Part shown: positions 46,920 through 64,000 of the stretch, piece after piece
Layout of the letters: the number at the start of each line of letters is the position of its first letter
How positions within the stretch are numbered: the first letter of the stretch is position 1
Source of the DNA: Escherichia coli O157 typing phage 15
Strand: one strand, 5' to 3'
Sequence record: KP869113
Length of the DNA: 64,000 bases
Notes under the pieces: model-generated
What the model was told of the DNA's origin: nothing
Database searches by the model: none
The model's input: the letters and a program-made list of their open reading frames with translations, nothing else
Position numbers and translations under genes: made by a program

Positions 46920-47137
46920 TATTTAAACCTCTATCTCAATTTATGAAGAGTACCAATTCTAGTTTGTTGATACTCTATTGTCAAACACTAATTACTGGAA
47001 GTTGTGCTTATCTTTAGAAGCTGCTTTACGTGCAGTTTTTCCAGTTCTTACACGTTTTTCTTCATAGTATTTTGCTGGTTTTCCAGCAGTGGCTTTTAAG
47101 GAATCCCCAAAAACTTTTTCAAATGCTTTAGAGTGTT

Positions 47138-47431: not shown

Positions 47432-49385
47432 TTAATACAGGTGGAATCGTTGAGCTTTGACGCTGCTCTTCAGTATAGACTTCACCAGTCTCACGGTCAA
47501 ACACTTCATCCTCATAATGTGGCAAAGAGTCATCGTAATGGTCTTCAGCTTCACCAATACCAAACTGTTGGCGAATATTTTCTGCTGCACCATCAATGTC
47601 AACTCCGCAACCAGATGCTTTGATGAGGCGTCCTGTATCTGGATTGTACCAAGTATGACCAGCAATACCCGTTGACTTACCATGACGACGACATTTAGTT
47701 AGCTTGATTTTTGTCAAGTTTTTCTTAACAGGGTCTGGGTCAACCTTGTTACGCATTAACAGAATGTTGTTCATAGAAATCTGGAAATACGCACCAGAGC
47801 CTTTAATATCCTCTTCAGAGATATCCCCACCTTCAGAGTTAGCCTTCTGACCACCTGCACTCTTACGAACGTGACAGACGTTCACTTGTGCATACTGGTA
47901 GCGTTTGCAACGACGCAATAGCTCAGATAAAACTTCCTCTTCATCCGTATCTGAACGTGACAGAGCCAACGTAATAGGGTCAAGAATAATAATCTTGCAG
48001 TCTAAACTGTTAACCAGATAATCAACAAATTCCAGCAAGTTATCTTGGTCAATTGCCCCTTGATGGTCAACGATGTGGATACGACGACCTTTAGACAGTT
48101 CTGCGTGTGCCTCCTTCAATTCATCCCAATCACGTTCGTCATAAGGAATCTCAGAAATCTGCTTGCTCAGGTGGATTGCACAGAGCATCTCCATCAACTC
48201 TTCATAGGTATCTTCAACCGGAATTACACCAATATTGTAATCAGTATCTTTCCAAGCTGAATAAATCATCTCACGAGTGTAAGCTGACTTACCTACTGAA
48301 GATGGTGCTGCAATAGTTGTAATCTCACCCAAACCATAACCACCGTAAGTCAGTCTGTTCAAATCCCCGAAAGATTCTGGGAAAGGAATCAATGGAATCT
48401 GACCACGATTCTTCATTGCCTCAAAACCATCTGCAAAGTTCTTGATACCAGCAGGACAGTAACGAGGTGCGTTGTAGATACGCTGCTTAAATCCTTCCAG
48501 AACTGTGTCTTTCTCTTTATAGAACTTTGTCCACCATTCGTTAAGGTCTTTTACACCCTCTGGATACTGGAATAAACGAACCTTCTCAATAGGTAAGATA
48601 CCAGCAGCCTCTTTGGTAGCTTTAGCACCTGCTTCATCGTTATCAAAGCACAAGTAAATTTCATCAAATGATGTGATGTACTGATAGTTATCTTTGATAG
48701 ACTTGATGTTTGCACCTGACGGAACAGATACATGACAGTAATTCTTACGACGAGACTTGTCTTTAATCGCAAGAGAGGTCATATAGATTGCTGTCGCACA
48801 TTCCATCTCACCTTCCCAGATGAATAGACGGTTACCACCTTCTGGAGCAATCCATGAACCGAACATTGCCAGTTCACCTTTAATGTCTCCAACACCACCA
48901 GAAAAGTCTTTTAGCTTACCACGTAGGTGCTCTTTTGGATGGTCTTCTGGGTAACGGTGACGAACACGGTAGCCAACATGTTCTAGCTTACCATCTTCAT
49001 TACGTTTGTAAGTTGGATAGAAGTGCGCATCAATTTCACCGTCACTGTCAATGTCAACCTTGATACCTAAGCGTTCAAGGACTTTTGCAGGAATCTTCCT
49101 ATCTTTCAAGTCCATTGCTTCTAGGTTTTCTTTTACATCGTCTAAATCCATTCCACGGAAAGTACGGTTTTTATTGTCTGAACCAGTAGAATAAGTGCTC
49201 ACGATTTGTCCTTTATCAAAATCCCACTCTGGGAAACCTTTGTTACAACTAAAGCAAGTCATTGAATAAGAATCATCGTCATGATGATAGATTGAACCAG
49301 CATCTGATGAACCACAACGTGGACATGCGCAATGACCAACAAACTGACCAGCCTCTTTCAATTTACGACCTTTAGACATTAGCAC
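47394..49385 (-). CDS. DNA primase-helicase (zinc-ribbon primase plus DnaB-like helicase)
   Basis: 663-aa ORF; N-terminal CPRCGSSD...CFSCN zinc ribbon; Walker A APSSVGKSAYT. Confidence 0.75.
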   Translation of the reverse strand: MLMSKGRKLKEAGQFVGHCACPRCGSSDAGSIYHHDDDSYSMTCFSCNKGFPEWDFDKGQIVSTYSTGSDNKNRTFRGMDLDDVKENLEAMDLKDRKIPAKVLERLGIKVDIDSDGEIDAHFYPTYKRNEDGKLEHVGYRVRHRYPEDHPKEHLRGKLKDFSGGVGDIKGELAMFGSWIAPEGGNRLFIWEGEMECATAIYMTSLAIKDKSRRKNYCHVSVPSGANIKSIKDNYQYITSFDEIYLCFDNDEAGAKATKEAAGILPIEKVRLFQYPEGVKDLNEWWTKFYKEKDTVLEGFKQRIYNAPRYCPAGIKNFADGFEAMKNRGQIPLIPFPESFGDLNRLTYGGYGLGEITTIAAPSSVGKSAYTREMIYSAWKDTDYNIGVIPVEDTYEELMEMLCAIHLSKQISEIPYDERDWDELKEAHAELSKGRRIHIVDHQGAIDQDNLLEFVDYLVNSLDCKIIILDPITLALSRSDTDEEEVLSELLRRCKRYQYAQVNVCHVRKSAGGQKANSEGGDISEEDIKGSGAYFQISMNNILLMRNKVDPDPVKKNLTKIKLTKCRRHGKSTGIAGHTWYNPDTGRLIKASGCGVDIDGAAENIRQQFGIGEAEDHYDDSLPHYEDEVFDRETGEVYTEEQRQSSTIPPVLSEDADDCPFETE

Positions 49386-49749
49386 CTCTTCGTTGTAGTT
49401 CTGCCTTCAATCCATTTTCAATCTTGTCCAGTTCATGAATTTCATCTGCAATCTCTTTCCTTCGTGATTCAACTCTCTTAAGACGTTCAATCATTACCTC
49501 ATTGGAAAGAGATGAGAGTTCCACTAAACGGTGGTCAATAACTTTNNNNNNNNNNNNNNNNNNNNNNNNNNNNNNNNNNNNNNNNNNNNNNNNNNNNNNN
49601 NNNNNNNNNNNNNNNNNNNNNNNNNNNNNNNNNNNNNNNNNNNNNTCAACTCTCTTAAGACGTTCAATCATTACCTCATTGGAAAGAGATGAGAGTTCCA
49701 CTAAACGGTGGTCAATAACTTTAAAATTGTCTTTTACTCTCATCTTCAT
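49372..49749 (-). CDS. hypothetical coiled-coil protein (interrupted by artefactual gap)
   Basis: ORF spans N run 49546-49645 whose flanks are identical, so the true protein is shorter than listed. Confidence 0.3.
   Translation of the reverse strand: MKMRVKDNFKVIDHRLVELSSLSNEVMIERLKRVXXXXXXXXXXXXXXXXXXXXXXXXXXXXXXXXXXKVIDHRLVELSSLSNEVMIERLKRVESRRKEIADEIHELDKIENGLKAELQRRGANV
49546..49645. other. assembly gap (100 N) flanked by identical 76-bp sequence
   Basis: 49470-49545 equals 49646-49721. Confidence 0.95.
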
Positions 49750-49757
49750 TATCTCTT

Positions 49758-50501
49758 TTAAACTTTAATGATGGCTCTTAGCTTGTTCTCAAGGTCTGCA
49801 AGAGTACCATTATTATGAATAATGTCACGCTCATATTTTGTAGAAATCCCATTTTCTGAAACATGTGATGAAACCTTGTCCACATTGTCTCTTTTTACTT
49901 CAATAGTTTGGTGTGCAAATCTACTCAGCCATTCAGCTTCAGAGTCAAATCTTAAATCACTGATTAAGACAAAACCATATTGATTTCTAAGTGAGCACAT
50001 TTCATGGAATCTAACCATTCTTTTTTCAAGGTCTTTAGACCAGAACTTGTCGCCCATTACTTTACGGACAACTTCAGTACCCCAAATCTGTTGAATTTGT
50101 CTTGATGAGAATTTATACTTTTTACTAAATCCCAGACGTGTTAATAGGGTAGGTTTAGCAACCTTCTTAAGCTCCATGATTAATCGTCCGGTTAACTCTG
50201 ACATAAGCTTGAAGTCCATATGGTAACGTTCATCTCTGAAGGTGAACTCCATAGCTTCCGTAACTTTAAACATCAGTTCAGGATATGATAAGTCAAATAC
50301 TTGTGGAGTCTCTTTAGTTTCACCATACAGGTCATTCCAAGTCAGGTCAAATATCTTTGATGCAGACAGTTTAAGGTTGTCTGCAAAGGCCATTACAGCA
50401 ACATTGTAGCCGTACTCATCCTCTAAGATGTTCTTCACAATAGAACATGAGGTGTCTTTTCCAGAACGTGCCTTTCCAGTAAATGCGATAATATTACTCA
50501 T
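49758..50501 (-). CDS. deoxynucleoside monophosphate kinase-like protein
   Basis: N-terminal IAFTGKARSGKDT P-loop resembles T4 gp1 dNMP kinase. Confidence 0.55.
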   Translation of the reverse strand: MSNIIAFTGKARSGKDTSCSIVKNILEDEYGYNVAVMAFADNLKLSASKIFDLTWNDLYGETKETPQVFDLSYPELMFKVTEAMEFTFRDERYHMDFKLMSELTGRLIMELKKVAKPTLLTRLGFSKKYKFSSRQIQQIWGTEVVRKVMGDKFWSKDLEKRMVRFHEMCSLRNQYGFVLISDLRFDSEAEWLSRFAHQTIEVKRDNVDKVSSHVSENGISTKYERDIIHNNGTLADLENKLRAIIKV

Positions 50502-50562
50502 TTTATCTCCCTTAATTACTAAAAAGCCCCCAACTAAGGAGGCTTGTAAGATTTATAAAGAC

Positions 50563-51363
50563 TTAGTGCAGTTGCTCAGCAGACTCTTTTTCAGCCATAG
50601 CTGAGATTTGCTTCACAAAATCATCACCGAAGTTAATGCGTAGTTTCTCTTCAATGATTGAAGCACCGATGTTCACCAAAACATCATTGATTGCTTGCAT
50701 ACTAACGCCACCAGTCATCTCTTCAATGAACTCAATACTTACACCCATCATCTGTGAAAGTTGGATTAGTGCAACGATATTCATCATCGTAGAGATAGCT
50801 GGAATCATCAGTGCAACTTTCACCTGAAGAGGTTCTATATCAGCTACAGAGTCATTTTCAACAGCTTCTTCCAAAGACTCTTTAGTTTGCTGGATAATTT
50901 CTTTGATTCGTGGGCTTAACTCTTCTACGCCCCAATCAAGTTTTTCATATCGTGAAAGTTTCTCTTCCATGCGCTTCTCAAGAACTGCCATAACAGCACT
51001 TGTTGATGAGATTAGTGTGTCAATAAGGAAATCAGTATCCTTAGTCAGCAATAGTTCCTTTTCTTCATCTGACATCCTGATATAGTCATTCTTTTGCATT
51101 TCATAAAAAATGAACTCTGCAAGCGCATCAACACCGACTGCAATAGATGCAAGGGCAAGTGTAGTATCTGACAACATCATATTAACCTGCTCTGCAAAAG
51201 CACCGTTATCAGTTTTATCTTCAGGCAAGTTATAGCTTTTTGGCATAAACTGTTCTGTATAGTTATTTCCACGAAGAATCATAGCCATGCTTTCTACAGC
51301 ATTGATTAAAAATGCTTCATCAATACCTTTTTCTTTAAGCATTTGGTCTACAGTAGTATTCAT
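50563..51363 (-). CDS. hypothetical protein
   Basis: 266-aa ORF. Confidence 0.45.
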   Translation of the reverse strand: MNTTVDQMLKEKGIDEAFLINAVESMAMILRGNNYTEQFMPKSYNLPEDKTDNGAFAEQVNMMLSDTTLALASIAVGVDALAEFIFYEMQKNDYIRMSDEEKELLLTKDTDFLIDTLISSTSAVMAVLEKRMEEKLSRYEKLDWGVEELSPRIKEIIQQTKESLEEAVENDSVADIEPLQVKVALMIPAISTMMNIVALIQLSQMMGVSIEFIEEMTGGVSMQAINDVLVNIGASIIEEKLRINFGDDFVKQISAMAEKESAEQLH

Positions 51364-51364
51364 A

Positions 51365-51964
51365 TTATTTCTCTCTCAGTTGGTTAAGTTTCTTTCTAGA
51401 GCATTTTAAGTTTTCAGATGAAGAAAAGTCAAGTGTCTTTTCAGAACGTGGATAGTAATGCCTGTCCCAAGAAGTTTCAACATCGTTAATCAGTGATGCT
51501 AGATTACACAGGTCTGTACCACTTTGCAACCTCTTTTTAAGAGAATCTAGTAAAGCAACTGTATCTTTAGCTTTACGTCTAGCTATAGCAACGTCTTTCA
51601 TATGCTCGAACACAGAGCATTTTAAGTCATCTTCATAGTCTTCTGATAACTCTATTTCATGTTGTATATCAACCATTCTCCTGTGATGGTGAGCATATTC
51701 CCGTTGAGCAGCAATGTCAAGTTCNNNNNNNNNNNNNNNNNNNNNNNNNNNNNNNNNNNNNNNNNNNNNNNNNNNNNNNNNNNNNNNNNNNNNNNNNNNN
51801 NNNNNNNNNNNNNNNNNNNNNNNNAACTCTATTTCATGTTGTATATCAACCATTCTCCTGTGATGGTGAGCATATTCCCGTTGAGCAGCAATGTCAAGTT
51901 CTTCCAACTTCTGCAAAGCTCTAACAAAGTCAGCTATGTCTGGGTGAACAAACATTTTCTGCAT
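51365..51964 (-). CDS. hypothetical protein (interrupted by artefactual gap)
   Basis: ORF spans N run 51725-51824 with duplicated flanks. Confidence 0.3.
   Translation of the reverse strand: MQKMFVHPDIADFVRALQKLEELDIAAQREYAHHHRRMVDIQHEIEXXXXXXXXXXXXXXXXXXXXXXXXXXXXXXXXXXELDIAAQREYAHHHRRMVDIQHEIELSEDYEDDLKCSVFEHMKDVAIARRKAKDTVALLDSLKKRLQSGTDLCNLASLINDVETSWDRHYYPRSEKTLDFSSSENLKCSRKKLNQLREK
51725..51824. other. assembly gap (100 N) flanked by identical 76-bp sequence
   Basis: 51649-51724 equals 51825-51900. Confidence 0.95.
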
Positions 51965-52130
51965 GTAAGCCTCTTTTAAGTAACTATTAAGTTTTAATCT
52001 TTTATCTTAACGTATTCTATACGTTATACTTTAAAGCTTTTTAAAAGCTATTAAATAATCTTTTAAGAGTTTTAAAGTATCTGTATAGTTAAACTGTTAA
52101 GTAACCTTTTAAGTAAAAACCCACTTCGCA

Positions 52131-52152
52131 AAGATTAACACCTTGTCAAGTA
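52131..52152 (+). promoter_or_regulatory. conserved motif ccTTGTCAAGTACATTGTCAAc upstream of DNA polymerase gene
   Basis: same motif as 7005-7026; followed by tataat-like box. Confidence 0.4.
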
Positions 52153-52221
52153 CATTGTCAACTTGCTTTTTATAATTTTTTGCAGTAATGTATGAGGTTA
52201 ATGATTTTAGAGGGAGTAAAA

Positions 52222-54845
52222 ATGGAAAACGTAGATTTTAAAAACTTACATTTAGTTGGTGATACAGAAACTGATGGTTTACTCCTTGAGTTCACTAAAG
52301 TTCACGTAATGGCTTTCGCAGACTACAAATCTGACGACGAAGAACCACCAGTATGGGTCTTTACTGATGAGCCTATTCTCGGTCACAAGTACACTAAGTA
52401 CATCAAGGGTGGATTACGTGAAGGTATTGAGTTTGCGTTGAAGGCAAAACGACTTTGTATCCATAATGGTCTCGGTTATGACTGGTGGGTTTTCAATCAC
52501 ATTGCACCGGATTTATGGAACTTTGATAATCCAAAGTGTAAGCCATGGAGTAATTTCTTTCAGGATTCTCTTATCCAGTCTCGTGTTCAGTGGATGGATA
52601 GACCAACTCCAAAGGGTTATAAAGGCGCTCATGGCTTGGCTGCATGGGGTGCTCGTGTTGGTGTTCGTAAACCAGAGATTGAACATTGGGGTGTGTGGAA
52701 TGCAGAAATCTTCACTCGTGTTGTAGAAGATATCCGTATTAACGCCAAAACTAAACGGGCACTTGATAACGAGTATCTCAAGCTTAAGAAGTGTGGTATA
52801 GACACTTATGAAACTTACATGCGAGCTAAAGAGACATCTTTCTGGATGAGCCAACAAGCTATCAATGGTTGGAAAGCTGATAAGGAGCTTATGGAGTTCC
52901 ATGTAAAGGAGCTTGACAAATTGACTAATGAACTTGCTTCAGAGGTTGAACCACATCTACCTCCAACTATTAAGACCAAAGGTAAAGTCACTGGAGAAGA
53001 GTTTGCAAAAGCTTGGAATGAGTATGTTGAAACATTCGGTCATGCAGATGGACTGAAGAGAATTACCAAGTACCCTAAAACAAAGTATCGTCAACAGGTA
53101 CGTAACGGTGAGATGCAGACATACGAAATCAAGCCATTTGGTAAGCCAACTACAAAGATTTTTAACATTGAAAAGAGAAATTGCTATACACCAACCAACT
53201 CTGTAACTGGTGAAGAGTACAAGGAAGGCTTTGTAGCAATGAAGGATGCTCGTGCAATTTGCAATGAGTTGAACGCAAAGATTGGTAAGAAATGCAAAGA
53301 CTGGAAGCCAGTAAAAACAGTCAAAACTGTGAAGTACTATAATAGCCACGTTGTTAACCACTTTGAGCTTGAGTCGAGTCGCTACACAGGTTTGATTGAT
53401 GCACCATATACACCAATTGAGTTTGAAGTTTCTCGTATGACTCAGGTAGCAGTTGTTAAAGACTACTTGAAATCAGTTGGTTGGATTCCAGATGACTGGA
53501 ACTACAAGAAAGACTCAGATGGTCGCCCTGTCAAAGTTTGTCGTTTCAAAGACAATAAAAAGATGATTACAAAGCATCCTAAGTGGCAGGAAATGGTTGA
53601 GCGGTGTGGTTTGAGCTATGTTGAGCATGAAGGTGTACAGTACATTGAGCATAACTGGTCTGTGAAGAAATACACAGATTTGCTTGAGCCTTGCTTAATC
53701 CGTACTTCACCAAAACTTACTGAATCATCTTATGATACGATTGAAGGTGAGCTTGGACAGAAGATTGCTAAGTACTACACTTTGATGCACAGACGCAGAA
53801 CTATTGAGAACTCAAAGGATGACGAGAAAGGTTGGCTGAACCAGATTCGTCCAGATGGTCGCCTTAGTGCTGGTGCAATGGTATTTGGTACTTCAACTGG
53901 ACGTATGACACAATATGGTATTGTAAACGTACCGTCTGGTGCGGCTGTCTATGGGGAACCAATGAGGGCAGTGTGGATTTGTGAAGAAGGTACTAATGTT
54001 GTCTCTGTAGACATGAACTCAGCCCAGCTAGTTCTCCTTTGTAACTTTATGGGTGACAAAGACTTCACCAAAGCGGTAACGCAAGGTAAAGAAGAGATTG
54101 AGTTTATTCGTCAAGAAGATGGACGCTATTACTGCAAACATTTTGATGAGTACCTAAACCCAGAAATTGATAAGTACCTTCGCTATGACTCTGAGAATGA
54201 CCTGTACGTTGTCTATTCAGGGACTGATGCACATACACTGAACAGTATTTACTTTAGCTTGAATGATGAGCAGGATATCTTGACTTGTCGAGCTACTCAG
54301 GATGAGAATCTTCTTCATGAGATTAGCAAAGGTCGTAAGAAAGCTAAGAATGGTATCTATGCACTACTGTTCGGTGCAGGTGATGAAAAGTTTGCTAAAA
54401 CTATTAAGGCAGCCACTACTCAGGAAGGTGCATTAACTAAACAGACTTACTTTGTGCGTTTGCCAAAGATTAAGAAACTATTAGATAACTTGGAAGCTGA
54501 CTACAAAGCAACTAAGAAGGCACTTGAAGAGGTGTTTGGTAAGACCGCTGCAATCTCTAAAGGGGGCTTCGTAAAGGTTGCTGGAGCTTGGTTGTGGTGT
54601 AAATCTCCACACAAACTGTTGAACTACCTTTTGATGGGTTCAGAGGCTCAGATTCAAAATGAGGCAATCAACCTTGCTTGTCGTCGTATGATTGACGAAG
54701 GTTTGATGAAATTGAATGGTCGTCAACCAGCTATTGGTGCTCGTTTGCTCTGCGCATATCACGATGAAACAAGTTGGGAATGTCCAGAAAGTATGACGGC
54801 AGAAGTGAAAGCAGTTACTGACTGGTATTATGGACAAGCTTCTAA
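52222..54845 (+). CDS. DNA polymerase, family A (3' end cut by scaffold gap; C-terminus at 59745-59897)
   Basis: start at ATG with GGGAG RBS; family-A motif C region YHDETSWECPE; last 76 nt before the gap are identical to 59745-59820. Confidence 0.8.
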
Positions 54846-55817
54846 NNNNNNNNNNNNNNNNNNNNNNNNNNNNNNNNNNNNNNNNNNNNNNNNNNNNNNN
54901 NNNNNNNNNNNNNNNNNNNNNNNNNNNNNNNNNNNNNNNNNNNNNNNNNNNNNNNNNNNNNNNNNNNNNNNNNNNNNNNNNNNNNNNNNNNNNNNNNNNN
55001 NNNNNNNNNNNNNNNNNNNNNNNNNNNNNNNNNNNNNNNNNNNNNNNNNNNNNNNNNNNNNNNNNNNNNNNNNNNNNNNNNNNNNNNNNNNNNNNNNNNN
55101 NNNNNNNNNNNNNNNNNNNNNNNNNNNNNNNNNNNNNNNNNNNNNNNNNNNNNNNNNNNNNNNNNNNNNNNNNNNNNNNNNNNNNNNNNNNNNNNNNNNN
55201 NNNNNNNNNNNNNNNNNNNNNNNNNNNNNNNNNNNNNNNNNNNNNNNNNNNNNNNNNNNNNNNNNNNNNNNNNNNNNNNNNNNNNNNNNNNNNNNNNNNN
55301 NNNNNNNNNNNNNNNNNNNNNNNNNNNNNNNNNNNNNNNNNNNNNNNNNNNNNNNNNNNNNNNNNNNNNNNNNNNNNNNNNNNNNNNNNNNNNNNNNNNN
55401 NNNNNNNNNNNNNNNNNNNNNNNNNNNNNNNNNNNNNNNNNNNNNNNNNNNNNNNNNNNNNNNNNNNNNNNNNNNNNNNNNNNNNNNNNNNNNNNNNNNN
55501 NNNNNNNNNNNNNNNNNNNNNNNNNNNNNNNNNNNNNNNNNNNNNNNNNNNNNNNNNNNNNNNNNNNNNNNNNNNNNNNNNNNNNNNNNNNNNNNNNNNN
55601 NNNNNNNNNNNNNNNNNNNNNNNNNNNNNNNNNNNNNNNNNNNNNNNNNNNNNNNNNNNNNNNNNNNNNNNNNNNNNNNNNNNNNNNNNNNNNNNNNNNN
55701 NNNNNNNNNNNNNNNNNNNNNNNNNNNNNNNNNNNNNNNNNNNNNNNNNNNNNNNNNNNNNNNNNNNNNNNNNNNNNNNNNNNNNNNNNNNNNNNNNNNN
55801 NNNNNNNNNNNNNNNNN
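54846..55817. other. assembly gap (972 N)
   Basis: run of n; left flank duplicated at 59745, right flank duplicated at 60718. Confidence 0.99.
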
Positions 55818-55885
55818 ATCATTCATAAGTTTGATGTTGCTGGTGATGTTCAAGTTATCGACGTAGAGATTGGTGGTAAGAGAAA

Positions 55886-56053
55886 ATGAAACCTAAGCAA
55901 ACAATGACAGATGCAACCTTCACAGTGCGCAGTTTCGAAAGGTTGCACATCAAAGATGCAAAAGATACACCGAAATGCGTTGTACATTTCATTAAAAGGT
56001 TTAGCGACAGGTCTTATATGAAATCTGACACAGGTGAGAGTACAAATGGATAA
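55886..56053 (+). CDS. hypothetical small protein
   Basis: 55-aa ORF starting at the ATGA overlap with the previous gene's stop. Confidence 0.3.
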   Translation: MKPKQTMTDATFTVRSFERLHIKDAKDTPKCVVHFIKRFSDRSYMKSDTGESTNG

Positions 56054-56264
56054 AGATAACAAATATAATAACGCCGTCCTTACAGAAGAGGGTGAGCTTG
56101 AAACATTCATTCTTCGTGTTGATGGTAAGTTATTCCGGTGTCGTTGTGGGTCAAACTGTTTCCATAAACCAGATAAAAATGACTTAGAGCTTTACGCATG
56201 TAATGCTTGTGACACTTGGTATCACTCAGAGGTTAAAAATGACAATTCTGTACAAACAAAATAA
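56046..56264 (+). CDS. small Cys-rich zinc-finger-like protein
   Basis: CRCGSNC...CNACDTWYH cysteine pairs. Confidence 0.4.
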   Translation: MDKDNKYNNAVLTEEGELETFILRVDGKLFRCRCGSNCFHKPDKNDLELYACNACDTWYHSEVKNDNSVQTK

Positions 56265-57339
56265 AGATGGTTCCTTCAACGTCTGGTCATGTGTTGCTGT
56301 AGGTGACAAAGTTATCACAACCTATGGTAAAGAAAATGGCAAGATGATGTTTGAAGAGTACACAGCAGAGCCTAAGAACATCGGTAAAAAGAATGAGCGT
56401 AACGCTGAACAGCAAGCTCTCTTTGAAGTTTCTGCTAAGTATAAGAAACAAGTAGACCGTAAAGGTTACGCTTACACAAAAGAGTCTGCACAGAATACTG
56501 AGAAGGTAGGTGTACAGCTTGCTCATGATGCTGCAAAGGTTAGCCATGCAAAGTATCTGAAGTTCCCTGCTGATGCTCAACCAAAACTTGATGGTGTCCG
56601 TTGTAGAATTTCAAGAGGTGATGATTCAGTTAGTTTCACGGCTTATTCTCGTGAGAATACTGTTTATAAAATACCTACTGAGCTAACACCTGACATTATG
56701 ACTATGTTAAGACTCCATGCAGACGTTGATGAGTTTGACGGGGAGGTTTATGCTCATGGGTGGGACTTAGAAGATATTGTCTCCATGATTAAAAATGAAG
56801 ACAACCCAGACAGACATCTTCTTAAGTTTTACTGGTATGACATCTGTGATAGCACTAAGACGTGGCCTGAACGTAGGGATATTATTGAGACTTCACCATT
56901 GAATGACTTGGGAGATGGCTGTAAAGTTGTCCCTGTTAAGTCTCGTCGTGTAAACTCTTGGGAAGAATTTGATGAAGCTCATGATAAGTGGGTTGAAGTT
57001 AAGTTTGAAGGTGCAATGTACCGTTCAATCTCTGAAGACTCCTTCTATGAGTGTTGTCACCGTTCATACTTCTTGATTAAGCACAAGAAGATGCACACTG
57101 AAGAGTTTAAAGTGACTGGTGTAAAGACTGATAAACGTGGTCATGGTAAGTTCGTTGTAGAGACTCTTCCTAACGTCTTTGTAGATGTCTCATGGAAGAC
57201 TACTCATGAGAAGAAACAGTACCTTGCTGAGCATCCTGATGAGTTTATCGGGAAACCTTTAACGGTTCAGTTCCAGAAGATGACTCGTAAGGGTTCTTTA
57301 CAGTTTCCTGTAGGGCTAGTTATTAGGGATTATGAGTAA
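56236..57339 (+). CDS. ATP-dependent DNA ligase
   Basis: KLDGVRC (KxDG adenylation motif I); start set to MTILYKQ with GAGG RBS. Confidence 0.75.
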   Translation, partial: KMTILYKQNKDGSFNVWSCVAVGDKVITTYGKENGKMMFEEYTAEPKNIGKKNERNAEQQALFEVSAKYKKQVDRKGYAYTKESAQNTEKVGVQLAHDAAKVSHAKYLKFPADAQPKLDGVRCRISRGDDSVSFTAYSRENTVYKIPTELTPDIMTMLRLHADVDEFDGEVYAHGWDLEDIVSMIKNEDNPDRHLLKFYWYDICDSTKTWPERRDIIETSPLNDLGDGCKVVPVKSRRVNSWEEFDEAHDKWVEVKFEGAMYRSISEDSFYECCHRSYFLIKHKKMHTEEFKVTGVKTDKRGHGKFVVETLPNVFVDVSWKTTHEKKQYLAEHPDEFIGKPLTVQFQKMTRKGSLQFPVGLVIRDYE

Positions 57340-57342
57340 ACT

Positions 57343-57489
57343 ATGTTCAGTACAGTCATTCTGTTTATACTGGTTGTCTTTGTATTGTCATACATTGCAA
57401 GTAAGCTTTTGGACACATCTTTTGCAATGGGTGTTTTGTTCACAATATTCTGTTTTGTAACACATATAGCTATCAGGACTTTTATATAA
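57343..57489 (+). CDS. small hydrophobic protein
   Basis: 48-aa ORF MFSTVILFILVVFVLSYIAS..., below ORF-track length cutoff. Confidence 0.3.
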   Translation: MFSTVILFILVVFVLSYIASKLLDTSFAMGVLFTIFCFVTHIAIRTFI

Positions 57490-57518
57490 AAAGTTGTTGA
57501 CATAGAAAATTTGGTGAG

Positions 57519-57595
57519 TATACTGAGCAGCATAAACCAACGGGTACTCACCAGCATCACTTAAGAGTCTTCTAAGAGGGTTTTTAAGTGATGTG
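57519..57595. repeat. composite repeat head (aagagtcttctaagagggtttttaagtgatgtg), duplicated at 60894-60970
   Basis: exact 77-bp duplicate at a contig end. Confidence 0.7.
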
Positions 57596-57801
57596 NNNNN
57601 NNNNNNNNNNNNNNNNNNNNNNNNNNNNNNNNNNNNNNNNNNNNNNNNNNNNNNNNNNNNNNNNNNNNNNNNNNNNNNNNNNNNNNNNNNNNNNNNNNNN
57701 NNNNNNNNNNNNNNNNNNNNNNNNNNNNNNNNNNNNNNNNNNNNNNNNNNNNNNNNNNNNNNNNNNNNNNNNNNNNNNNNNNNNNNNNNNNNNNNNNNNN
57801 N
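57596..57801. other. assembly gap (206 N)
   Basis: run of n; flanks duplicated at 60894 and 62482. Confidence 0.99.
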
Positions 57802-57935
57802 GTCTTTGAAAAGGGTTTTTAAGTGAGGTTTGGCTCAGTATGGTTATGTGTGGTGATGTGTGGTTCTGTAAGGTCATGTTTGGTATGGAAGGATGGCAGT
57901 AGCCTTATAAAAAATCTGCCAAATAAGCTATAAAA
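57802..57935. repeat. composite repeat unit: conserved head plus GGT-periodic tract
   Basis: aagagtctttgaaaagggtttttaagtgaggtttggctcagtatggttatgtgtggtgatgtgtggttctgtaaggtcatgtttggtatggaaggatgg. Confidence 0.6.
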
Positions 57936-57939
57936 TCTG

Positions 57940-57975
57940 TTGACAAGTCAGGTGTTATAGCTTATTTTTATACTC
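57940..57975 (+). promoter_or_regulatory. sigma70-like promoter (TTGACA-17 nt-TATTTT) upstream of secreted protein gene
   Basis: ttgacaagtcaggtgttatagcttatttttatact. Confidence 0.4.
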
Positions 57976-58012
57976 AACGTAATACAAAATTTAATATAAC
58001 TTTGAGGTCATT

Positions 58013-58396
58013 ATGAAAAAGATTTTATTAGCTGCTGCAATGATTATGGCAATGAATTTACCAGTCAATGCAACAGAACTGCCAAATGTGAACTTATCAG
58101 GTGTCCCAGAGGATACTTGTCAGATTGTAAAAGGTGTTGCTCTAGCTAATGGTGAGCTACTAAAACCAATTTCTGAAGAGTCTTTGACAGAGATGACTGA
58201 TAAGGTGACTGACTATCAATATCGCGTTCTTGCAGAGTATTTCCTGCAATCTGCAAATATTAAAGAGAAGCACCATGATGATATTGATGTACAGGCGATG
58301 CTCAACCACCGTATCCAGTTTAAAGAAGATTTGATGCAAAAAGCTATGTATGGTGTTGAGTATTTCTTAGAAAACAGAAGCTGCACAGGTATTTGA
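58013..58396 (+). CDS. secreted hypothetical protein (signal peptide)
   Basis: MKKILLAAAMIMAMNLPVNA signal-peptide-like N-terminus. Confidence 0.5.
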   Translation: MKKILLAAAMIMAMNLPVNATELPNVNLSGVPEDTCQIVKGVALANGELLKPISEESLTEMTDKVTDYQYRVLAEYFLQSANIKEKHHDDIDVQAMLNHRIQFKEDLMQKAMYGVEYFLENRSCTGI

Positions 58397-58397
58397 T

Positions 58398-58610
58398 ATG
58401 GCTCTTAAAAAGTTACATCCCAGAAGCGGTTATGGTAAGATAATTGACGATACAGACGGCTTTACAGTCTTTACAGTCATCTGTCAAGATGATTCACAGA
58501 TTGAAAAGGCTCTTGATGATTATCTTAATGATGAACGTGAAAAGGTCAGAGCTACAAACATAGACTCATTAATTGATACTTCACGTAAACGGAAGAAGAA
58601 AGATGAATGA
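58398..58610 (+). CDS. hypothetical protein
   Basis: 70-aa ORF. Confidence 0.4.
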   Translation: MALKKLHPRSGYGKIIDDTDGFTVFTVICQDDSQIEKALDDYLNDEREKVRATNIDSLIDTSRKRKKKDE

Positions 58611-58902
58611 GGTTTTTGACCCTTATGCTCCACAAGATGATTGGGAGGCTGATAGAGAGGCTGAAATGGAGAGTTATATTTGTCCAATGGATGTAGACGA
58701 AATGAGAGACTTCGTTGCACATCGTTTTAAGAGAGAGATTAAATCCAGAGGTCTTTCTCAAGAACAAGTCGCTAAAATTTGTGGTATCTCTCAAGCTCGT
58801 GTATCCAACATAATCCACCTCACTGGGAATGTCTCTCTTGAGTATATGTTGGAAGTGTGTGAAAAATTTGGTGTTAATTTCAATTTAAGGTTGGCAGATT
58901 AA
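58603..58902 (+). CDS. helix-turn-helix protein
   Basis: GLSQEQVAKICGISQARVSNI HTH-like segment. Confidence 0.45.
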   Translation: MNEVFDPYAPQDDWEADREAEMESYICPMDVDEMRDFVAHRFKREIKSRGLSQEQVAKICGISQARVSNIIHLTGNVSLEYMLEVCEKFGVNFNLRLAD

Positions 58903-58903
58903 T

Positions 58904-59263
58904 ATGAAACGTGAAAACATTATCCACTCTGAAAACTTCGCATTAGGCTTTTATGGTGCACCTACTCACCTTGAAAAGTACTACGGTGTAAAAATTCTTT
59001 CCAATCTCATTATGGCTTACAAAGATGGTAAGATTAAGCACACTGAGAAGAAACGTGTCATGGGCTACATGGCTGTAGGTTCAGCAATCTCGAACATTAA
59101 GCTGGAAACCACTAGCAGTCAGATTGTAAAAGACCACTTCATCAAAGAGCTTTACCATAATCTTGACGGTGTAGATGTTCAGGCTGTTTGGTTGGATGTT
59201 GATGGTCACAACTACACGAGTTTTGTTTTCAAAAACGATGACATTAAGTGCTTGTTCCCATAA
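58904..59263 (+). CDS. hypothetical protein
   Basis: 119-aa ORF. Confidence 0.45.
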   Translation: MKRENIIHSENFALGFYGAPTHLEKYYGVKILSNLIMAYKDGKIKHTEKKRVMGYMAVGSAISNIKLETTSSQIVKDHFIKELYHNLDGVDVQAVWLDVDGHNYTSFVFKNDDIKCLFP

Positions 59264-59276
59264 TAGGTGATTAACT

Positions 59277-59644
59277 ATGATTGATGTCTACTTACAAGAT
59301 GCTCATGCAGATTTCCTTAAAGAAATGCTTAAAAAGTTTATGGCTTCACAGTATGAGAATGAAGCATCTTTTAAAATAGTTACATGTGGCGATGAAGCTG
59401 GTTTTGTTGAGATTGAACATGAAGGTACTGGAAAGATTGTTTGTAAACTACCTGACAGTATGTTCTCTAGTGCATTCTTAACAAAGACTAGCATAAATGT
59501 TAAGCTTGTCCCTCAGATTGAAACATACTCTGGTACAGATTACCCTAAAGGTTTCAAGTCACTGATGAAGTACTTCTTAGATGACTTTGTGAGTAATCTT
59601 CTGAGGGAGGTAAAAGAAAGTCGTACAGTGTTAACTGTAGAGAA
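59277..59644 (+). CDS. hypothetical protein, N-terminal part (continues at 62658-62882)
   Basis: last 76 nt before the gap are identical to 62658-62733. Confidence 0.45.
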
Positions 59645-59744
59645 NNNNNNNNNNNNNNNNNNNNNNNNNNNNNNNNNNNNNNNNNNNNNNNNNNNNNNNN
59701 NNNNNNNNNNNNNNNNNNNNNNNNNNNNNNNNNNNNNNNNNNNN
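59645..59744. other. assembly gap (100 N)
   Basis: run of n. Confidence 0.99.
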
Positions 59745-59897
59745 ACAAGTTGGGAATGTCCAGAAAGTATGACGGCAGAAGTGAAAGCAGTTACTGACTG
59801 GTATTATGGACAAGCTTCTAAGAACTTAGGTCTTAAGAAAGAAACACTTGTAACAGGTACTGGTAAGGTTGGTAAAAGCTGGCTTGAAGTACACTAA
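59745..59897 (+). CDS. DNA polymerase C-terminal fragment (continuation of 52222-54845)
   Basis: first 76 nt identical to 54770-54845; reading frame continues to a stop at 59897. Confidence 0.6.
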   Translation, partial: TSWECPESMTAEVKAVTDWYYGQASKNLGLKKETLVTGTGKVGKSWLEVH

Positions 59898-59958
59898 TTA
59901 GTATTGACAAGGTGCTCATGGAAGAGTACCTTATACTGTATCTTGTATAGGAGGTCTC

Positions 59959-60177
59959 ATGACACTTTCAGACGTTATTCAGCAACTTCACGACAACTGC
60001 TATACTCCAGAGTTGATTCAGGAGATGCTTATTGTGGTGATGCCTAGTAAGTTCGTAAAAGGTTTTAATAGTGAATCTTTAAGGTCTGCACATATCCTTA
60101 TTGTTGACGGTAAGATTGCAAGAGACCGTACAGGTGTTCTTAAGGGTGAACGCATTGATATCTTGGAATTGTTATGA
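59959..60177 (+). CDS. hypothetical protein
   Basis: 72-aa ORF. Confidence 0.4.
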   Translation: MTLSDVIQQLHDNCYTPELIQEMLIVVMPSKFVKGFNSESLRSAHILIVDGKIARDRTGVLKGERIDILELL

Positions 60178-60334
60178 ATAGGTTATATAGTCTCTGGGGA
60201 AGGATGGGTAAAGACTCTGATTGGAACCTACTAAAAACAAACGTAAAAAGTAATGAGATAGCGTACTACAAAATTCATTACTACAAAACTTTCAGAGAGC
60301 TTGAGTATCGTGAACAACAGACAGGAGAAGTATT

Positions 60335-60571
60335 ATGTGGAAATCAGTAATTGTGCTTGGTGTTATTTTTCTAGCTGGCTGCAATCCTTCTTATGAAGAT
60401 AAAAATGCTTCTTATAGCCTCCCACCAGAGATGCAAGATTGCAAAGTCTATAAGTTGCATGGTGATGCCATAAGTAGAGACATTGTTGTTGTCAGATGTC
60501 CAAACTCTCAAACGACAACATCTTATAGTTATGGAAAAAATGGTCAATCACACACTACGGTTATTGAGTGA
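60335..60571 (+). CDS. putative lipoprotein
   Basis: signal peptide with lipobox LAGC. Confidence 0.45.
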   Translation: MWKSVIVLGVIFLAGCNPSYEDKNASYSLPPEMQDCKVYKLHGDAISRDIVVVRCPNSQTTTSYSYGKNGQSHTTVIE

Positions 60572-60581
60572 GGTTTTCACG

Positions 60582-60788
60582 ATGGAAGTCCTAGTAAACT
60601 ATATCTATTGTTATGATGTTGTTCACTCCACTACAACCGTAGCTCAACGTAACCCAATCGTCCCACGAGAAGGTGAATTGGTTCGCATTGAGGGTTGGAC
60701 TTACACTGTGGAAAGTATCATTCATAAGTTTGATGTTGCTGGTGATGTTCAAGTTATCGACGTAGAGATTGGTGGTAAGAGAAAATGA
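60582..60788 (+). CDS. hypothetical protein
   Basis: ORF whose last 76 nt are duplicated at 55818-55893. Confidence 0.35.
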   Translation: MEVLVNYIYCYDVVHSTTTVAQRNPIVPREGELVRIEGWTYTVESIIHKFDVAGDVQVIDVEIGGKRK

Positions 60789-60793
60789 AACCT

Positions 60794-60893
60794 NNNNNNN
60801 NNNNNNNNNNNNNNNNNNNNNNNNNNNNNNNNNNNNNNNNNNNNNNNNNNNNNNNNNNNNNNNNNNNNNNNNNNNNNNNNNNNNNNNNNNNNN
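60794..60893. other. assembly gap (100 N)
   Basis: run of n. Confidence 0.99.
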
Positions 60894-60927
60894 TATACTG
60901 AGCAGCATAAACCAACGGGTACTCACC

Positions 60928-61862
<935 letters not shown>

Positions 61863-61864
61863 TT

Positions 61865-62305
61865 ATGAATACAAAAGCATTAGCAGCAAAGTTCAGTTAC
61901 GGTGACACTGTATCACATTCTGAGATGGACACCTTCTTAGGTATTGTGAAGCCAACTTATCAAGGTGACATTGTTAAGTACGAAGATGAAATGAAGGCTT
62001 ATGCACTTACACGACTAAACCGACTTGAGAAGTTTATTGAGAAGCTTCTTAAAGAAGAGAAGATTTATCTTGTTGCTTCAATGGGTGTTGGTTATCGTGT
62101 GGTTGAGCCTAAGCATCAAGCGACTATTGCAAAACGTAAAATGTCTGGTAAGATTGGTCGTGCTTTAAAGCAAGCCACTCAAGCAATTGAGAATGTGAAC
62201 ACTATGGCACTGAGTCATCAAGAACGTTCACGGCTGATTGAACAGCAAAACCACTTAGCTGCTATGAAAGCTAACATTAACAAGCAACGTAGAAAACCTT
62301 TCTAA
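61865..62305 (+). CDS. hypothetical protein
   Basis: 146-aa ORF. Confidence 0.5.
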   Translation: MNTKALAAKFSYGDTVSHSEMDTFLGIVKPTYQGDIVKYEDEMKAYALTRLNRLEKFIEKLLKEEKIYLVASMGVGYRVVEPKHQATIAKRKMSGKIGRALKQATQAIENVNTMALSHQERSRLIEQQNHLAAMKANINKQRRKPF

Positions 62306-62317
62306 GTTGACTATGTA

Positions 62318-62345
62318 GCCTCTTCGGAGGCTCCTTTTTAAAAGG
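62318..62345 (+). terminator. rho-independent terminator
   Basis: gcctc-ttcg-gaggc stem followed by tcctttttaaaa. Confidence 0.55.
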
Positions 62346-62557
62346 TCTTTAAGAGGGTCTTTTAATAAGGCTCGGCAATGTTCGGCATGGTCTGGTATAG
62401 TCCGGTGCTGTTCGGCGTGGTAAGGTGAGGTATGGGTAGTTAATCGGAGCTACATAAAAATTCGATTACATCACTTAAGAGTCTTTGAAAAGGGTTTTTA
62501 AGTGAGGTTTGGCTCAGTATGGTTATGTGTGGTGATGTGTGGTTCTGTAAGGTCATG
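62338..62557. repeat. composite repeat units (head aaaggtctttaagagggtcttttaa plus GGC/GGT-periodic tract; second head aagagtctttgaaaagggtttttaa)
   Basis: ggctcggcaatgttcggcatggtctggtatagtccggtgctgttcggcgtggtaaggtgaggtatggg; last 76 nt duplicated at 57802-57877. Confidence 0.65.
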
Positions 62558-62657
62558 NNNNNNNNNNNNNNNNNNNNNNNNNNNNNNNNNNNNNNNNNNN
62601 NNNNNNNNNNNNNNNNNNNNNNNNNNNNNNNNNNNNNNNNNNNNNNNNNNNNNNNNN
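62558..62657. other. assembly gap (100 N)
   Basis: run of n. Confidence 0.99.
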
Positions 62658-62882
62658 AAGTACTTCTTAGATGACTTTGTGAGTAATCTTCTGAGGGAGG
62701 TAAAAGAAAGTCGTACAGTGTTAACTGTAGAGAACATGGGAGGAACTATAAAGGTTACTTCTGACTGTTTTGTGATGAGCCTCTTCGACTTCGTTCCTAA
62801 GAACTTTGATGGTATTCTGGATGAAGAAGATGACTGTGTAGACTTTATATTGGTTCTTGAACCAGTTTTTGAGGTTAAATAG
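62658..62882 (+). CDS. C-terminal part of the protein begun at 59277
   Basis: first 76 nt identical to 59569-59644; frame continues to a stop at 62882. Confidence 0.4.
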   Translation, partial: KYFLDDFVSNLLREVKESRTVLTVENMGGTIKVTSDCFVMSLFDFVPKNFDGILDEEDDCVDFILVLEPVFEVK

Positions 62883-63143
62883 ATGAAAATTGAACACTGC
62901 TATGAGTCTGATGGAACACCTATCCGATGTCCACATTGTGGGTGTACAGACTTGCAAGGCGAGGTAAGTGAAATAGTCAACGGTCATATCGCTGAAGAGA
63001 GTACAAGGTGTACAGAGTGTAATGAAATCATTGCTTTCTGGGCTTATGGTTCATACCAACCTACACCACACTTAATATACCATAGCAATAAAGCTGTGAA
63101 GAATGTTATCAACTGGTTCATTAAGAAAGGATTTACAAAATGA
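62883..63143 (+). CDS. small zinc-ribbon protein
   Basis: CPHCGC...CTECN cysteine pairs. Confidence 0.45.
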   Translation: MKIEHCYESDGTPIRCPHCGCTDLQGEVSEIVNGHIAEESTRCTECNEIIAFWAYGSYQPTPHLIYHSNKAVKNVINWFIKKGFTK

Positions 63144-63685
63144 TTAAATTAATCTTTGCAAGTGGTGAACATGGGGAGTTCGGTACTCCAACTGGTATGC
63201 CGTGGCCTCGACATAAACAGGATATGCAAGAGTTTAAGAGACTCACTAAAGGCAACTTGGTAGTCATGGGTAATGAAACTTTTAAGACTCTGGGTAGTAA
63301 ACCATTACCAGAACGTACAAACCTCGTCTTAACGAACTCTGTTCCATATTTGGGTATAGACTTTGACAAAGATGATGTAATGTATGCTAAGGCTAGTAAA
63401 GAATCCTTTGGAGCATTTTTGAAGTATCTTGATAGCTCTATTGATGAAGATGTCTTTGTAATTGGTGGTGCAGGTGTTCTTGTCGATGCTTTGCCGTATG
63501 CTGGTGTAGTTTTCCATACAGTTTTCCATAAAGTTACTGAAGAGGCCACTGTGTATTTACCTTTTGAAAACTTCTTCGATAAACTGTATGATAGCCGTGT
63601 GTTTGCAAAGGTGCAGTCAAGACCCTCAGATGATGGTAAAGCAACCTTTGAGATTTATGTTCCACAAGTAAAAGGACACTTTTGA
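63140..63685 (+). CDS. folA: dihydrofolate reductase
   Basis: N-terminal LIFASGEHGEFGTPTGMPWP...LVVMGNETFKTLG...PLPERTNLVLT matches the DHFR signature. Confidence 0.8.
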   Translation: MIKLIFASGEHGEFGTPTGMPWPRHKQDMQEFKRLTKGNLVVMGNETFKTLGSKPLPERTNLVLTNSVPYLGIDFDKDDVMYAKASKESFGAFLKYLDSSIDEDVFVIGGAGVLVDALPYAGVVFHTVFHKVTEEATVYLPFENFFDKLYDSRVFAKVQSRPSDDGKATFEIYVPQVKGHF

Positions 63686-64000
63686 TATGTCACAAGCAGA
63701 TTCAAGTTATAAAAATATCCTGAACCATGTTTTATCAGTCGGTGAACTGCGTACTACACGAACTGGAGATGTTATCTCTGCATTTGCTCCACCTAAGTTT
63801 CGTTTTGATATGCGAACTGGTTTCCCGCTTTTAACATCTAAACAGGTGTTTACACGGCAAGTTATTGGGGAAGCTCTATGGTTCCTGAACGGTGAGAATA
63901 AACTTGGTGAACTCCGTTATCGCACTTGGGGTGAAAATGATGGGGAACGCTGGACTATCTGGTCAGATGATTTTAAACGCTGGTTAAGTTCTAATTATTC
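63686..64000 (+). CDS. thyA: thymidylate synthase (partial, runs off window end)
   Basis: N-terminal RTTRTGDV...FPLLTSKQVFTRQVIGEALWFLNGE matches the ThyA N-terminus. Confidence 0.8.

What the first reader, a model, noticed from the sequence alone, without database searches (positions are those of the whole stretch)
49546..62733. Scaffold is mis-ordered: N gaps are flanked by exact 76-77 bp duplicates that give the true contig order
Gaps at 49546 and 51725 have identical sequence on both sides, so they are spurious and adjacent contigs simply overlap. Other overlaps link 54770-54845 to 59745-59820, 60718-60793 to 55818-55893, 57519-57595 to 60894-60970, 62482-62557 to 57802-57877, and 59569-59644 to 62658-62733. 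The implied order is 1451-54845, 59745-60793, 55818-57595, 60894-62557, 57802-59644, 62658-end. This rejoins the DNA polymerase with its C-terminus and the 59277 ORF with its C-terminus. The overlap length fits de Bruijn assembly with k=77.
Basis: seen in the sequence. Interest (0 to 1): 0.6.

Follow-up and report, generated by a model that had tools for sequence, protein, structure and literature searches.

The report
Mis-ordered draft phage scaffold, k=77 overlaps
The repeated 77-base stretches next to the N gaps are leftovers of short-read assembly in a draft genome of a Felix O1-like coliphage; joining the pieces by these overlaps gives the gene order seen in every related phage, so this is an assembly artefact and not biology.

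Summary
The window holds nine contigs (c0-c8) separated by eight N runs. They imply the order c1,c2,c3,c6,c4,c7,c5,c8.

The window is a Felixounavirus closest to E. coli O157 typing phage 1 (TP1). Thirteen relatives checked contig by contig keep that relative order wherever they cover the contigs, six of them from c1 to c8. Merging restores four broken genes at full length, including the family A DNA polymerase (899/899 aa aligned).

New points:
- The 972-N gap equals the length of c6 minus 77, and the 720-N gap equals the TP1 distance plus 77. The sized gaps are therefore exact graph distances.
- c3-N972-c4-N206-c5 is correctly ordered. Only c6 and c7, which belong in those two gaps, were appended after c5.
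- The layout fits two tiers: de novo scaffolds, then pieces sorted by reference position and glued with 100 N.
- The base just inside c2, c6, c7 and c8 at their ends is polymorphic among relatives at 6 of 7 junctions. This suggests at least two co-assembled phage variants.

Interest is low. Separately, c1 has a blunt junction at 15326|15327 that lacks 1372 bp covering the terminal-repeat region of relatives.

The parts
1451..49545 (+). Contig c1 (48,095 bp). Its last 77 bp (49469-49545) are identical to the first 77 bp of c2.
   Evidence: Maps to TP1 12538-61416 at 93-100% identity, and its 3' 18 kb are 100% identical.
49546..49645 (.). Spurious 100-N spacer. c1 and c2 overlap by 77 bp, so no sequence is missing here.
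   Evidence: The merged sequence restores the gp051 homologue at 64/64 aa.
49646..51724 (+). Contig c2 (2079 bp); probable variant arm.
   Evidence: Maps to TP1 61340-63418 at 99.9%. Its last interior base next to the c2>c3 77-mer is polymorphic in a relative.
51725..51824 (.). Spurious 100-N spacer. c2 and c3 overlap by 77 bp.
   Evidence: The merged sequence restores the gp048 homologue at 140/140 aa.
51825..54845 (+). Contig c3 (3021 bp). It holds the family A DNA polymerase gene from 52192, lacking its last ~25 codons. Its last 77 bp equal the start of c6.
   Evidence: 98.2% to TP1. Pfam DNA_pol_A, E=8.7e-15. The 53 nucleotide differences give only 2 amino-acid changes.
54846..55817 (.). 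972-N gap, a placeholder for c6. 972 = length of c6 (1049) minus 77; the true missing interior is 895 bp.
55818..57595 (+). Contig c4 (1778 bp). It holds small ORFs, the ATP-dependent DNA ligase (56239-57339) and a promoter-like TTGACA-N17-TATACT (57497-57525). Its first 77 bp equal the end of c6 and its last 77 bp equal the start of c7.
   Evidence: 88.2% identical to TP1 and 94.6% to wV8.
57596..57801 (.). 206-N gap where c7 belongs. The true interior is 1510 bp. The size does not fit c7, but fits a 283-bp alternative arm that lacks the two-gene cassette.
   Evidence: Relatives without the cassette have 105-119 bp at this point.
57802..59644 (+). Contig c5 (1843 bp). Its first 77 bp equal the end of c7 and its last 77 bp equal the start of c8. 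It holds the 5' part of the ORF that starts at 59277.
   Evidence: 100% to TP1.
59645..59744 (.). 100-N spacer between two pieces that are not neighbours (c5 and c6).
59745..60793 (+). Contig c6 (1049 bp), misplaced; it belongs between c3 and c4. It carries the last ~25 codons of the DNA polymerase and four small ORFs.
60794..60893 (.). 100-N spacer between two pieces that are not neighbours (c6 and c7).
60894..62557 (+). Contig c7 (1664 bp), misplaced; it belongs between c4 and c5. It is a two-gene cassette (61260-61862 and 61865-62305, function unknown) flanked by ~85-bp direct repeats that are 76% alike.
   Evidence: DR_4 repeats annotated in wV8; phrog_4652 and phrog_5926. The cassette is absent from Felix O1 and HP1.
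62558..62657 (.). 100-N spacer between two pieces that are not neighbours (c7 and c8).
62658..64000 (+). Contig c8 (cut by the window end); it follows c5. Its first 77 bp equal the end of c5, and it completes the ORF that starts at 59277 (gp033 homologue).
   Evidence: 171/171 aa.
731..1450 (.). 720-N gap between c0 and c1. This is a real gap with no overlap. 720 = TP1 distance (643) plus 77, which predicts a missing 797-bp contig.

Best explanation
The window is a draft, N-scaffolded short-read assembly of a Felixounavirus (Felix O1-like myovirus) very close to E. coli O157 typing phage 1 (TP1). The 77-bp duplicates are not genomic repeats. They are the k-mer overlaps that neighbouring contigs of a de Bruijn graph assembler share, with k=77.

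Shown:
- Joining by the overlaps gives c1-c2-c3-c6-c4-c7-c5-c8.
- This path is collinear with all relatives and repairs four genes.

Inferred (how the layout arose):
1. A first, de novo tier linked c0-N720-c1 and c3-N972-c4-N206-c5. Its gaps are graph distances (arm length minus k), jumped over branched stretches.
2. Stand-alone contigs under about 1 kb were dropped.
3. A second tier sorted the remaining pieces (S1=c0-N720-c1, c2, S3=c3-N972-c4-N206-c5, c6, c7, c8) by their start on a reference and glued them with fixed 100-N spacers. Because c6 and c7 start inside the span of S3, they landed after it, which produced the interleaving.

Inferred (why the contigs broke): compacted graphs end contigs only at branch vertices, so the sample probably held at least two closely related variants. 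In this reading c2, c6, c7 and c8 are variant arms and c1, c3, c4 and c5 are shared sequence. One variant probably lacks the c7 cassette.
For: Overlaps and order:
- Seven exact 77-bp end overlaps, all on the same strand, each with a single partner.
- Per-contig mapping gives the order c1 c2 c3 c6 c4 (c7) c5 c8 in TP1, wV8, Felix O1, HP1 and H12. Seven IMG/VR loci (one is wV8 again) and two metagenome contigs, which cover only parts of c3-c8, agree.
- Four genes are restored at full length. Pfam confirms the polymerase and the ligase.

Gap sizes and layout:
- 972 = 1049-77 exactly, and 720 = 643+77.
- The six pieces stand in ascending order of reference start (chance 1/720) and are not in length order.
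- The smallest stand-alone piece is 1049 bp, and the predicted 797-bp and 283-bp contigs are absent.
- k=77 is the usual final k of SPAdes for 150-bp reads (PMC6404606).

Variant mixture:
- The first or last interior base of c2/c6/c7/c8 next to the 77-mer is polymorphic among 10 relatives at 6 of 7 junctions. The base on the other side is polymorphic at 1 of 7. The Poisson-binomial P with local background rates is about 1e-4.
- Cassette presence or absence is a natural polymorphism of the genus. Relatives without it have 105-119 bp between the c4-end and c5-start points, against 129 bp implied by the 206-N gap.
Against: - No reads, assembly graph or source record could be obtained, so the joins rest on overlap, synteny and reading frames only.
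- The alternative arms (c2*, c6*, c7*, c8*) are not in the window. A c6* of about 1 kb would have been expected to survive a 1-kb filter.
- The break points do not coincide with divergence from TP1 itself, so the second variant is unidentified.
- The 206-N gap is explained only by an unseen contig.
- Which side is the arm was chosen after seeing the data (a factor of 2 on P), and the Fisher test of arm side against shared side gives only p=0.015.
- The assembler and scaffolder are inferred, not known.
Confidence: 0.93

Rival explanations
1. The scaffold order is biologically real. On this view the phage carries genuine 77-bp direct repeats and a rearranged replication-gene region, and the N runs hide unrelated sequence.
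For: Only that the record was deposited in this order, and that Felix O1-like genomes do contain intergenic direct repeats.
Against: - Every repeat copy ends exactly at an N run, and all seven are exactly 77 bp.
- Each 77-mer is single-copy in TP1 and the other relatives.
- The scaffold order truncates the DNA polymerase, gp033, gp048 and gp051, which the merged order restores to 100% coverage.
- No relative out of 13 shows this order.
- 972 N = length of c6 minus 77.
Confidence: 0.01
2. The order from the overlaps is right, but the contig breaks come from a single clonal phage. On this view they reflect coverage dips, sequencing-error tips or scaffolder quirks, and there is no second variant.
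For: - No alternative arm is visible in the window.
- c5-c8 are 100% identical to TP1 and c2 is 99.9% identical, so a single TP1-like genome explains all visible sequence.
- The break points do not abut differences from TP1.
Against: - Compacted de Bruijn graphs merge unbranched paths, so seven k-overlapping contig pairs need seven branch vertices.
- The arm-side border bases are polymorphic in relatives at 6 of 7 junctions against 1 of 7 on the other side (P about 1e-4).
- The 206-N gap cannot be a distance through c7 (1587) and fits a cassette-less path.
- An 83-bp exact repeat inside c1 was assembled through, so short repeats were not the limiting factor.
Confidence: 0.3
3. The order is right, but the merged path is a chimera. 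On this view the arms c2, c6, c7 and c8 come from different co-assembled variants, so the merged sequence matches no real genome.
For: If the sample is a mixture, phasing between bubbles more than 1 kb apart cannot be known from the window. c3 (98.2%) and c4 (88.2%) diverge from TP1 while their neighbours are 100% identical.
Against: c6, c7 and c8 are all 100% identical to TP1 and c2 is 99.9% identical, which is most simply one TP1-like haplotype. The differences in c3 are almost all synonymous, as in a genuine mosaic.
Confidence: 0.15

Closest known systems
k-mer-length overlaps between neighbouring contigs of de Bruijn graph assemblers (for example SPAdes, where the largest k is usually 77 for 150-bp reads; PMC6404606; contig overlap graph described in PMC10853769)
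   Same: There are exact same-strand overlaps of one fixed length at contig ends. The sized gaps equal contig length minus k. The overlaps give the graph adjacency.
   Different: The assembler is inferred and not documented for this record. A second step hid the overlaps behind 100-N spacers and placed two contigs after the scaffold whose gaps they fill.
Relocation-type scaffolding misassembly (as defined for assembly evaluation, quoted in PMC10853769)
   Same: Flanking pieces map to the same reference molecule, but in the wrong order or overlapping.
   Different: Only c6 and c7 are displaced, orientation is correct throughout, and the error can be repaired from the sequence alone.
Escherichia coli O157 typing phage 1 (Felixounavirus TP1, NC_041979.1/KP869100.1) and the wV8 / Felix O1 group
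   Same: Gene content and order are the same after correction. c0, c5-c8 and the 3' 18 kb of c1 are 100% identical to TP1. The window also has the tRNA array, the replication module and the DR_4-flanked cassette as in wV8.
   Different: c3 is 98.2% and c4 88.2% identical to TP1 (c4 is 94.6% to wV8), the tRNA region is 93-97% identical, and 1372 bp of the ORF-free, terminal-repeat-bearing region are absent at 15326|15327.

Membership tests
de Bruijn contig-end k-overlap artefact | The duplicated stretches lie exactly at contig ends that abut N runs. | tested here: met
   All 14 copies start or end at an N-run border.
de Bruijn contig-end k-overlap artefact | All overlaps have one identical length (k), are exact and are on the same strand. 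| tested here: met
   Seven of seven are exactly 77 bp and 100% identical, and there are no inverted matches.
de Bruijn contig-end k-overlap artefact | The duplicated stretch is single-copy in complete related genomes. | tested here: met
   Each contig maps once, and neighbours overlap by 77 bp in TP1 coordinates.
de Bruijn contig-end k-overlap artefact | Merging by the overlaps restores collinearity and open reading frames. | tested here: met
   The order is conserved in 13 relatives, and four genes are restored to 100% coverage.
de Bruijn contig-end k-overlap artefact | Reads or the assembly graph support the joins. | not testable with these tools
   The source record and reads were not found.
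Genuine genomic direct repeats or rearrangement | Both repeat copies are embedded in contiguous sequence and present in relatives. | tested here: not met
   The copies are always truncated by Ns and are single-copy in the relatives.
Felixounavirus (Ounavirinae) | High nucleotide identity and collinearity with genus members across the window. | tested here: met
   88-100% identity to TP1 over all contigs. About 300 Ounavirinae records match.
Felixounavirus (Ounavirinae) | A large tRNA gene array and a replication module of family A DNA polymerase plus ATP-dependent ligase. | tested here: met
   22 tRNA genes at 42-4841 on the minus strand. Pfam DNA_pol_A and DNA_ligase_A_M.
Mixed-variant (bubble) assembly | The first and last interior bases of each arm are variant sites. 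| tested here: inconclusive
   This is an indirect test only. Those bases are polymorphic among database relatives at 6 of 7 junctions against 1 of 7 on the shared side. The alternative arms themselves were not seen.

The most novel reading that the evidence does not exclude
The fragmentation pattern records real population structure. The sequenced lysate or sample would then hold at least two recombinant Felixounavirus variants. They would share c1, c3, c4 and c5 but differ in modular segments (c2, c6, c8 and a 643-bp tRNA-region segment), and one would lack the direct-repeat-flanked two-gene cassette of c7.
Probability: 0.55. Interest if true: 0.2.

Novelty: not a real feature. Interest (0 to 1): 0.08.

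Why it matters
This matters for data quality only. As deposited, the scaffold truncates or duplicates parts of four genes, including the DNA polymerase. It also fakes a rearrangement of the replication module and hides 0.54 kb of duplicated sequence (7 x 77 bp) behind Ns. Anyone using it for comparative genomics, synteny or gene calling would be misled; for example, mechanical ORF listing gives a 1224-aa frame that runs through Ns.

The correction can be made from the sequence itself. In window coordinates, concatenate:
1. 1451-49545
2. 49723-51724
3. 51902-54845
4. 59822-60793
5. 55895-57595
6. 60971-62557
7. 57879-59644
8. 62735-64000

This gives 60,333 bp.

A general lesson follows. Fixed-length exact duplicates flanking N runs, together with N-run lengths equal to a contig length minus k, are a usable signature for repairing draft scaffolds automatically.

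Tried and rejected
1. Co-resident TP1-identical strain as the cause of the breaks. I checked whether the contig breaks coincide with the onset of divergence from TP1. They do not: c3's first and last mismatches are at 1270 and 2923 of 3021, and c2's are at 1211 and 1654.
2. The 206-N gap as a deletion by recombination between the two ~85-bp repeats flanking c7. This predicts that c5 starts about 27-29 bp before the end of c4, as in Felix O1, not +129 bp. A spacing like that of L007 or L010 (105-119 bp) fits better.
3. Piece order by length, as in raw assembler output. Rejected: the lengths run 49545, 2079, 7820, 1049, 1664, >=1343.
4. Search for the source record, which found nothing:
   - exact-protein look-ups of the ligase, in two start variants;
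   - the c6>c4 77-mer in genome, viral and metagenome collections, which found only wV8 and two non-source contigs;
   - the unique 15326|15327 junction 60-mer;
   - c4 against the E. coli complete genomes and against plasmids.
5. Rfam scan of the ORF-free TP1 segment that is missing here. There was one sub-threshold chance hit.
6. Pfam on the two cassette proteins gave nothing. PHROGs placed them only in families of unknown function.
Full report
**Observation.** The window has eight N runs that define nine contigs:

| Contig | Window coordinates |
|---|---|
| c0 | 1-730 |
| c1 | 1451-49545 |
| c2 | 49646-51724 |
| c3 | 51825-54845 |
| c4 | 55818-57595 |
| c5 | 57802-59644 |
| c6 | 59745-60793 |
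| c7 | 60894-62557 |
| c8 | 62658-64000 |

An all-against-all suffix-prefix comparison finds seven exact overlaps. All are on the same strand and all are exactly 77 bp: c1>c2, c2>c3, c3>c6, c6>c4, c4>c7, c7>c5 and c5>c8. These are the only exact repeats of 30 nt or more outside an intergenic repeat family at 15.5-21.1 kb, and no 30-mer is shared with the reverse strand.

**What the sequence is.** The contigs match about 300 Ounavirinae genomes. The best match is E. coli O157 typing phage 1 (TP1, NC_041979.1, 88,531 bp). Identity to TP1 by contig:

| Contig | Identity to TP1 |
|---|---|
| c0 | 100% |
| c1 | 93-100% in a mosaic; the 3' 18 kb are 100% |
| c2 | 99.9% |
| c3 | 98.2% |
| c4 | 88.2% (94.6% to wV8) |
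| c5-c8 | 100% |

The region of the finding is the replication module. It holds the end of the primase/helicase gene, small ORFs, a family A DNA polymerase (Pfam), more small ORFs, an ATP-dependent DNA ligase, a two-gene cassette of unknown function, a regulator and the DHFR gene (annotation of TP1 and wV8).

**Test of the proposed order.**
- Mapped one by one, the contigs lie on TP1 in the order c1, c2, c3, c6, c4, c7, c5, c8, and each neighbouring pair overlaps by 77 bp in reference coordinates.
- The same order holds in wV8, Felix O1, Citrobacter phage HP1 (genus Mooglevirus) and EcoM_H12.
- It also holds in seven IMG/VR loci, one of which is wV8 again, and in two metagenome contigs. These cover only parts of c3-c8.
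- Felix O1 and HP1 simply lack c7.
- The c6>c4 junction holds the overlapping stop and start of two small ORFs. The c4>c7 and c7>c5 junctions are intergenic.

**How the layout arose (inference).** The sized gaps are not rough estimates.
- 972 N equals the length of c6 (1049) minus 77 exactly.
- 720 N equals the TP1 distance between c0 and c1 (643) plus 77.

They are therefore graph distances in a k=77 graph, and c3-N972-c4-N206-c5 and c0-N720-c1 are first-tier scaffolds with correct order. The six pieces (c0-N-c1, c2, c3-N-c4-N-c5, c6, c7, c8) stand in ascending order of their start on the reference. The chance of that is 1/720, and they are not in length order. All junctions between pieces are exactly 100 N. 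This fits a second step that ordered the pieces by reference position with fixed spacers. Because c6 and c7 start inside the span of c3-c5, they were placed after it. Only c6 and c7 are misplaced. The smallest stand-alone piece is 1049 bp, and the predicted 797-bp contig of the first gap is absent, which suggests a 1-kb length filter. k=77 is the usual final k of SPAdes for 150-bp reads (PMC6404606), but the software is not known for this record.

**Why the contigs broke (inference).** Compacted de Bruijn graphs end contigs only at branch vertices, so each junction 77-mer must carry an edge not present in the window.
- The breaks do not coincide with divergence from TP1.
- However, the base immediately inside c2, c6, c7 and c8 next to the shared 77-mer is polymorphic among ten relatives at 6 of 7 junctions. 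The base on the other side is polymorphic at 1 of 7. The background rate is 16.5% of sites. The Poisson-binomial P with local rates is about 1e-4, to be doubled because the alternation was chosen post hoc; the Fisher test gives p=0.015.
- This is what is expected if c2, c6, c7 and c8 are variant arms and c1, c3, c4 and c5 are shared by two co-assembled variants.
- The 206-N gap cannot be a path through c7 (1587). It implies a 283-bp arm with 129 bp of interior. The c7 cassette is flanked by direct repeats (DR_4 in wV8) and is absent from several relatives, in which the corresponding spacing is 105-119 bp.

I put the mixture at roughly 0.55-0.7. It does not affect the conclusion about order.

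**Rivals.**
- A real rearrangement with real 77-bp repeats is excluded by repeat position, uniform length, single copy in relatives and broken genes.
- A clonal sample with breaks from coverage or errors remains possible (about 0.3).
- A chimeric path through arms of different variants is possible, but disfavoured because c6, c7 and c8 are all 100% TP1-like.

**Comparison and verdict.** This is a standard class of artefact: k-overlaps of de Bruijn contigs combined with a relocation-type scaffolding error. The genome is an ordinary member of a well-sampled phage genus. It is not a biological feature, and interest is low.

**Side observation.** Inside c1, at 15326|15327, there is a blunt junction with no microhomology. 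It lacks 1372 bp that TP1 has at 25826-27197.
- That segment has no ORF of 60 aa or more. It matches 273 Ounavirinae records and is covered to at least 80% in 206 of them.
- By alignment to Pr103Blw it contains the 581-bp direct terminal repeat, that is, the physical genome ends (PMC8303462).
- None of 257 matching records has the two flanks within 900 bp of each other.
- The junction also removes the last 14 codons of the gp108 homologue.

Whether this is a real deletion or a mis-join cannot be decided without reads.

Noticed in passing
window 15326|15327 (inside c1): A blunt junction with zero microhomology lacks 1372 bp present in TP1 (25826-27197). The missing segment is ORF-free and well conserved across the subfamily (273 matching Ounavirinae records, at least 80% covered in 206). 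It spans the 581-bp direct terminal repeat mapped in phage Pr103Blw, and the junction cuts 14 codons off the gp108 homologue. None of 257 matching records has the two flanks adjacent. It is either a real deletion of the termini region or a hidden mis-join.
   Followed up: partly
window 60894-62557 (c7), repeats at about 60930-61014 and 62469-62553: A two-gene cassette of unknown function (phrog_4652, phrog_5926) is flanked by ~85-bp direct repeats that are 76% alike (DR_4 in the wV8 annotation). It is present in TP1, wV8 and H12 and absent in Felix O1, HP1 and two IMG/VR relatives, so it is an indel module of the genus.
   Followed up: partly
window 55818-57595 (c4) and 51825-54845 (c3): These are mosaic patches. 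c4 (small ORFs plus DNA ligase) is 88.2% identical to TP1 but 94.6% to wV8, TP8, TP11 and TP12, and matches no database phage more closely. c3 differs from TP1 at 53 sites, nearly all at third codon positions, giving 2 amino-acid changes in the polymerase. The neighbouring contigs are 100% TP1.
   Followed up: partly
window 42-4841, minus strand: An array of 22 tRNA genes is interrupted by the 720-N gap. It includes a tRNA-Trp(cca) at 2801-2871 that has no counterpart in the TP1 feature table. This part of c1 is only 93-97% identical to TP1 and contains indels.
   Followed up: no
window 15562-21070: A family of intergenic direct repeats lies in the early-gene region, with exact stretches up to 83 nt (18314-18396 = 20559-20641). 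The longest exceeds k=77, yet it was assembled through inside c1. Felix O1 is reported to have comparable intergenic repeats (PMC3185647).
   Followed up: no
window 57497-57525: A sigma-70-like promoter, TTGACA-N17-TATACT, lies at the end of c4. Its -10 box starts the c4>c7 overlap, just upstream of the left cassette repeat.
   Followed up: no
window 52192-55866 and other ORFs that cross N runs: Mechanical ORF listing reports frames that run through N runs, for example a 1224-aa ORF across the 972-N gap. These are artefacts of the gaps.
   Followed up: yes
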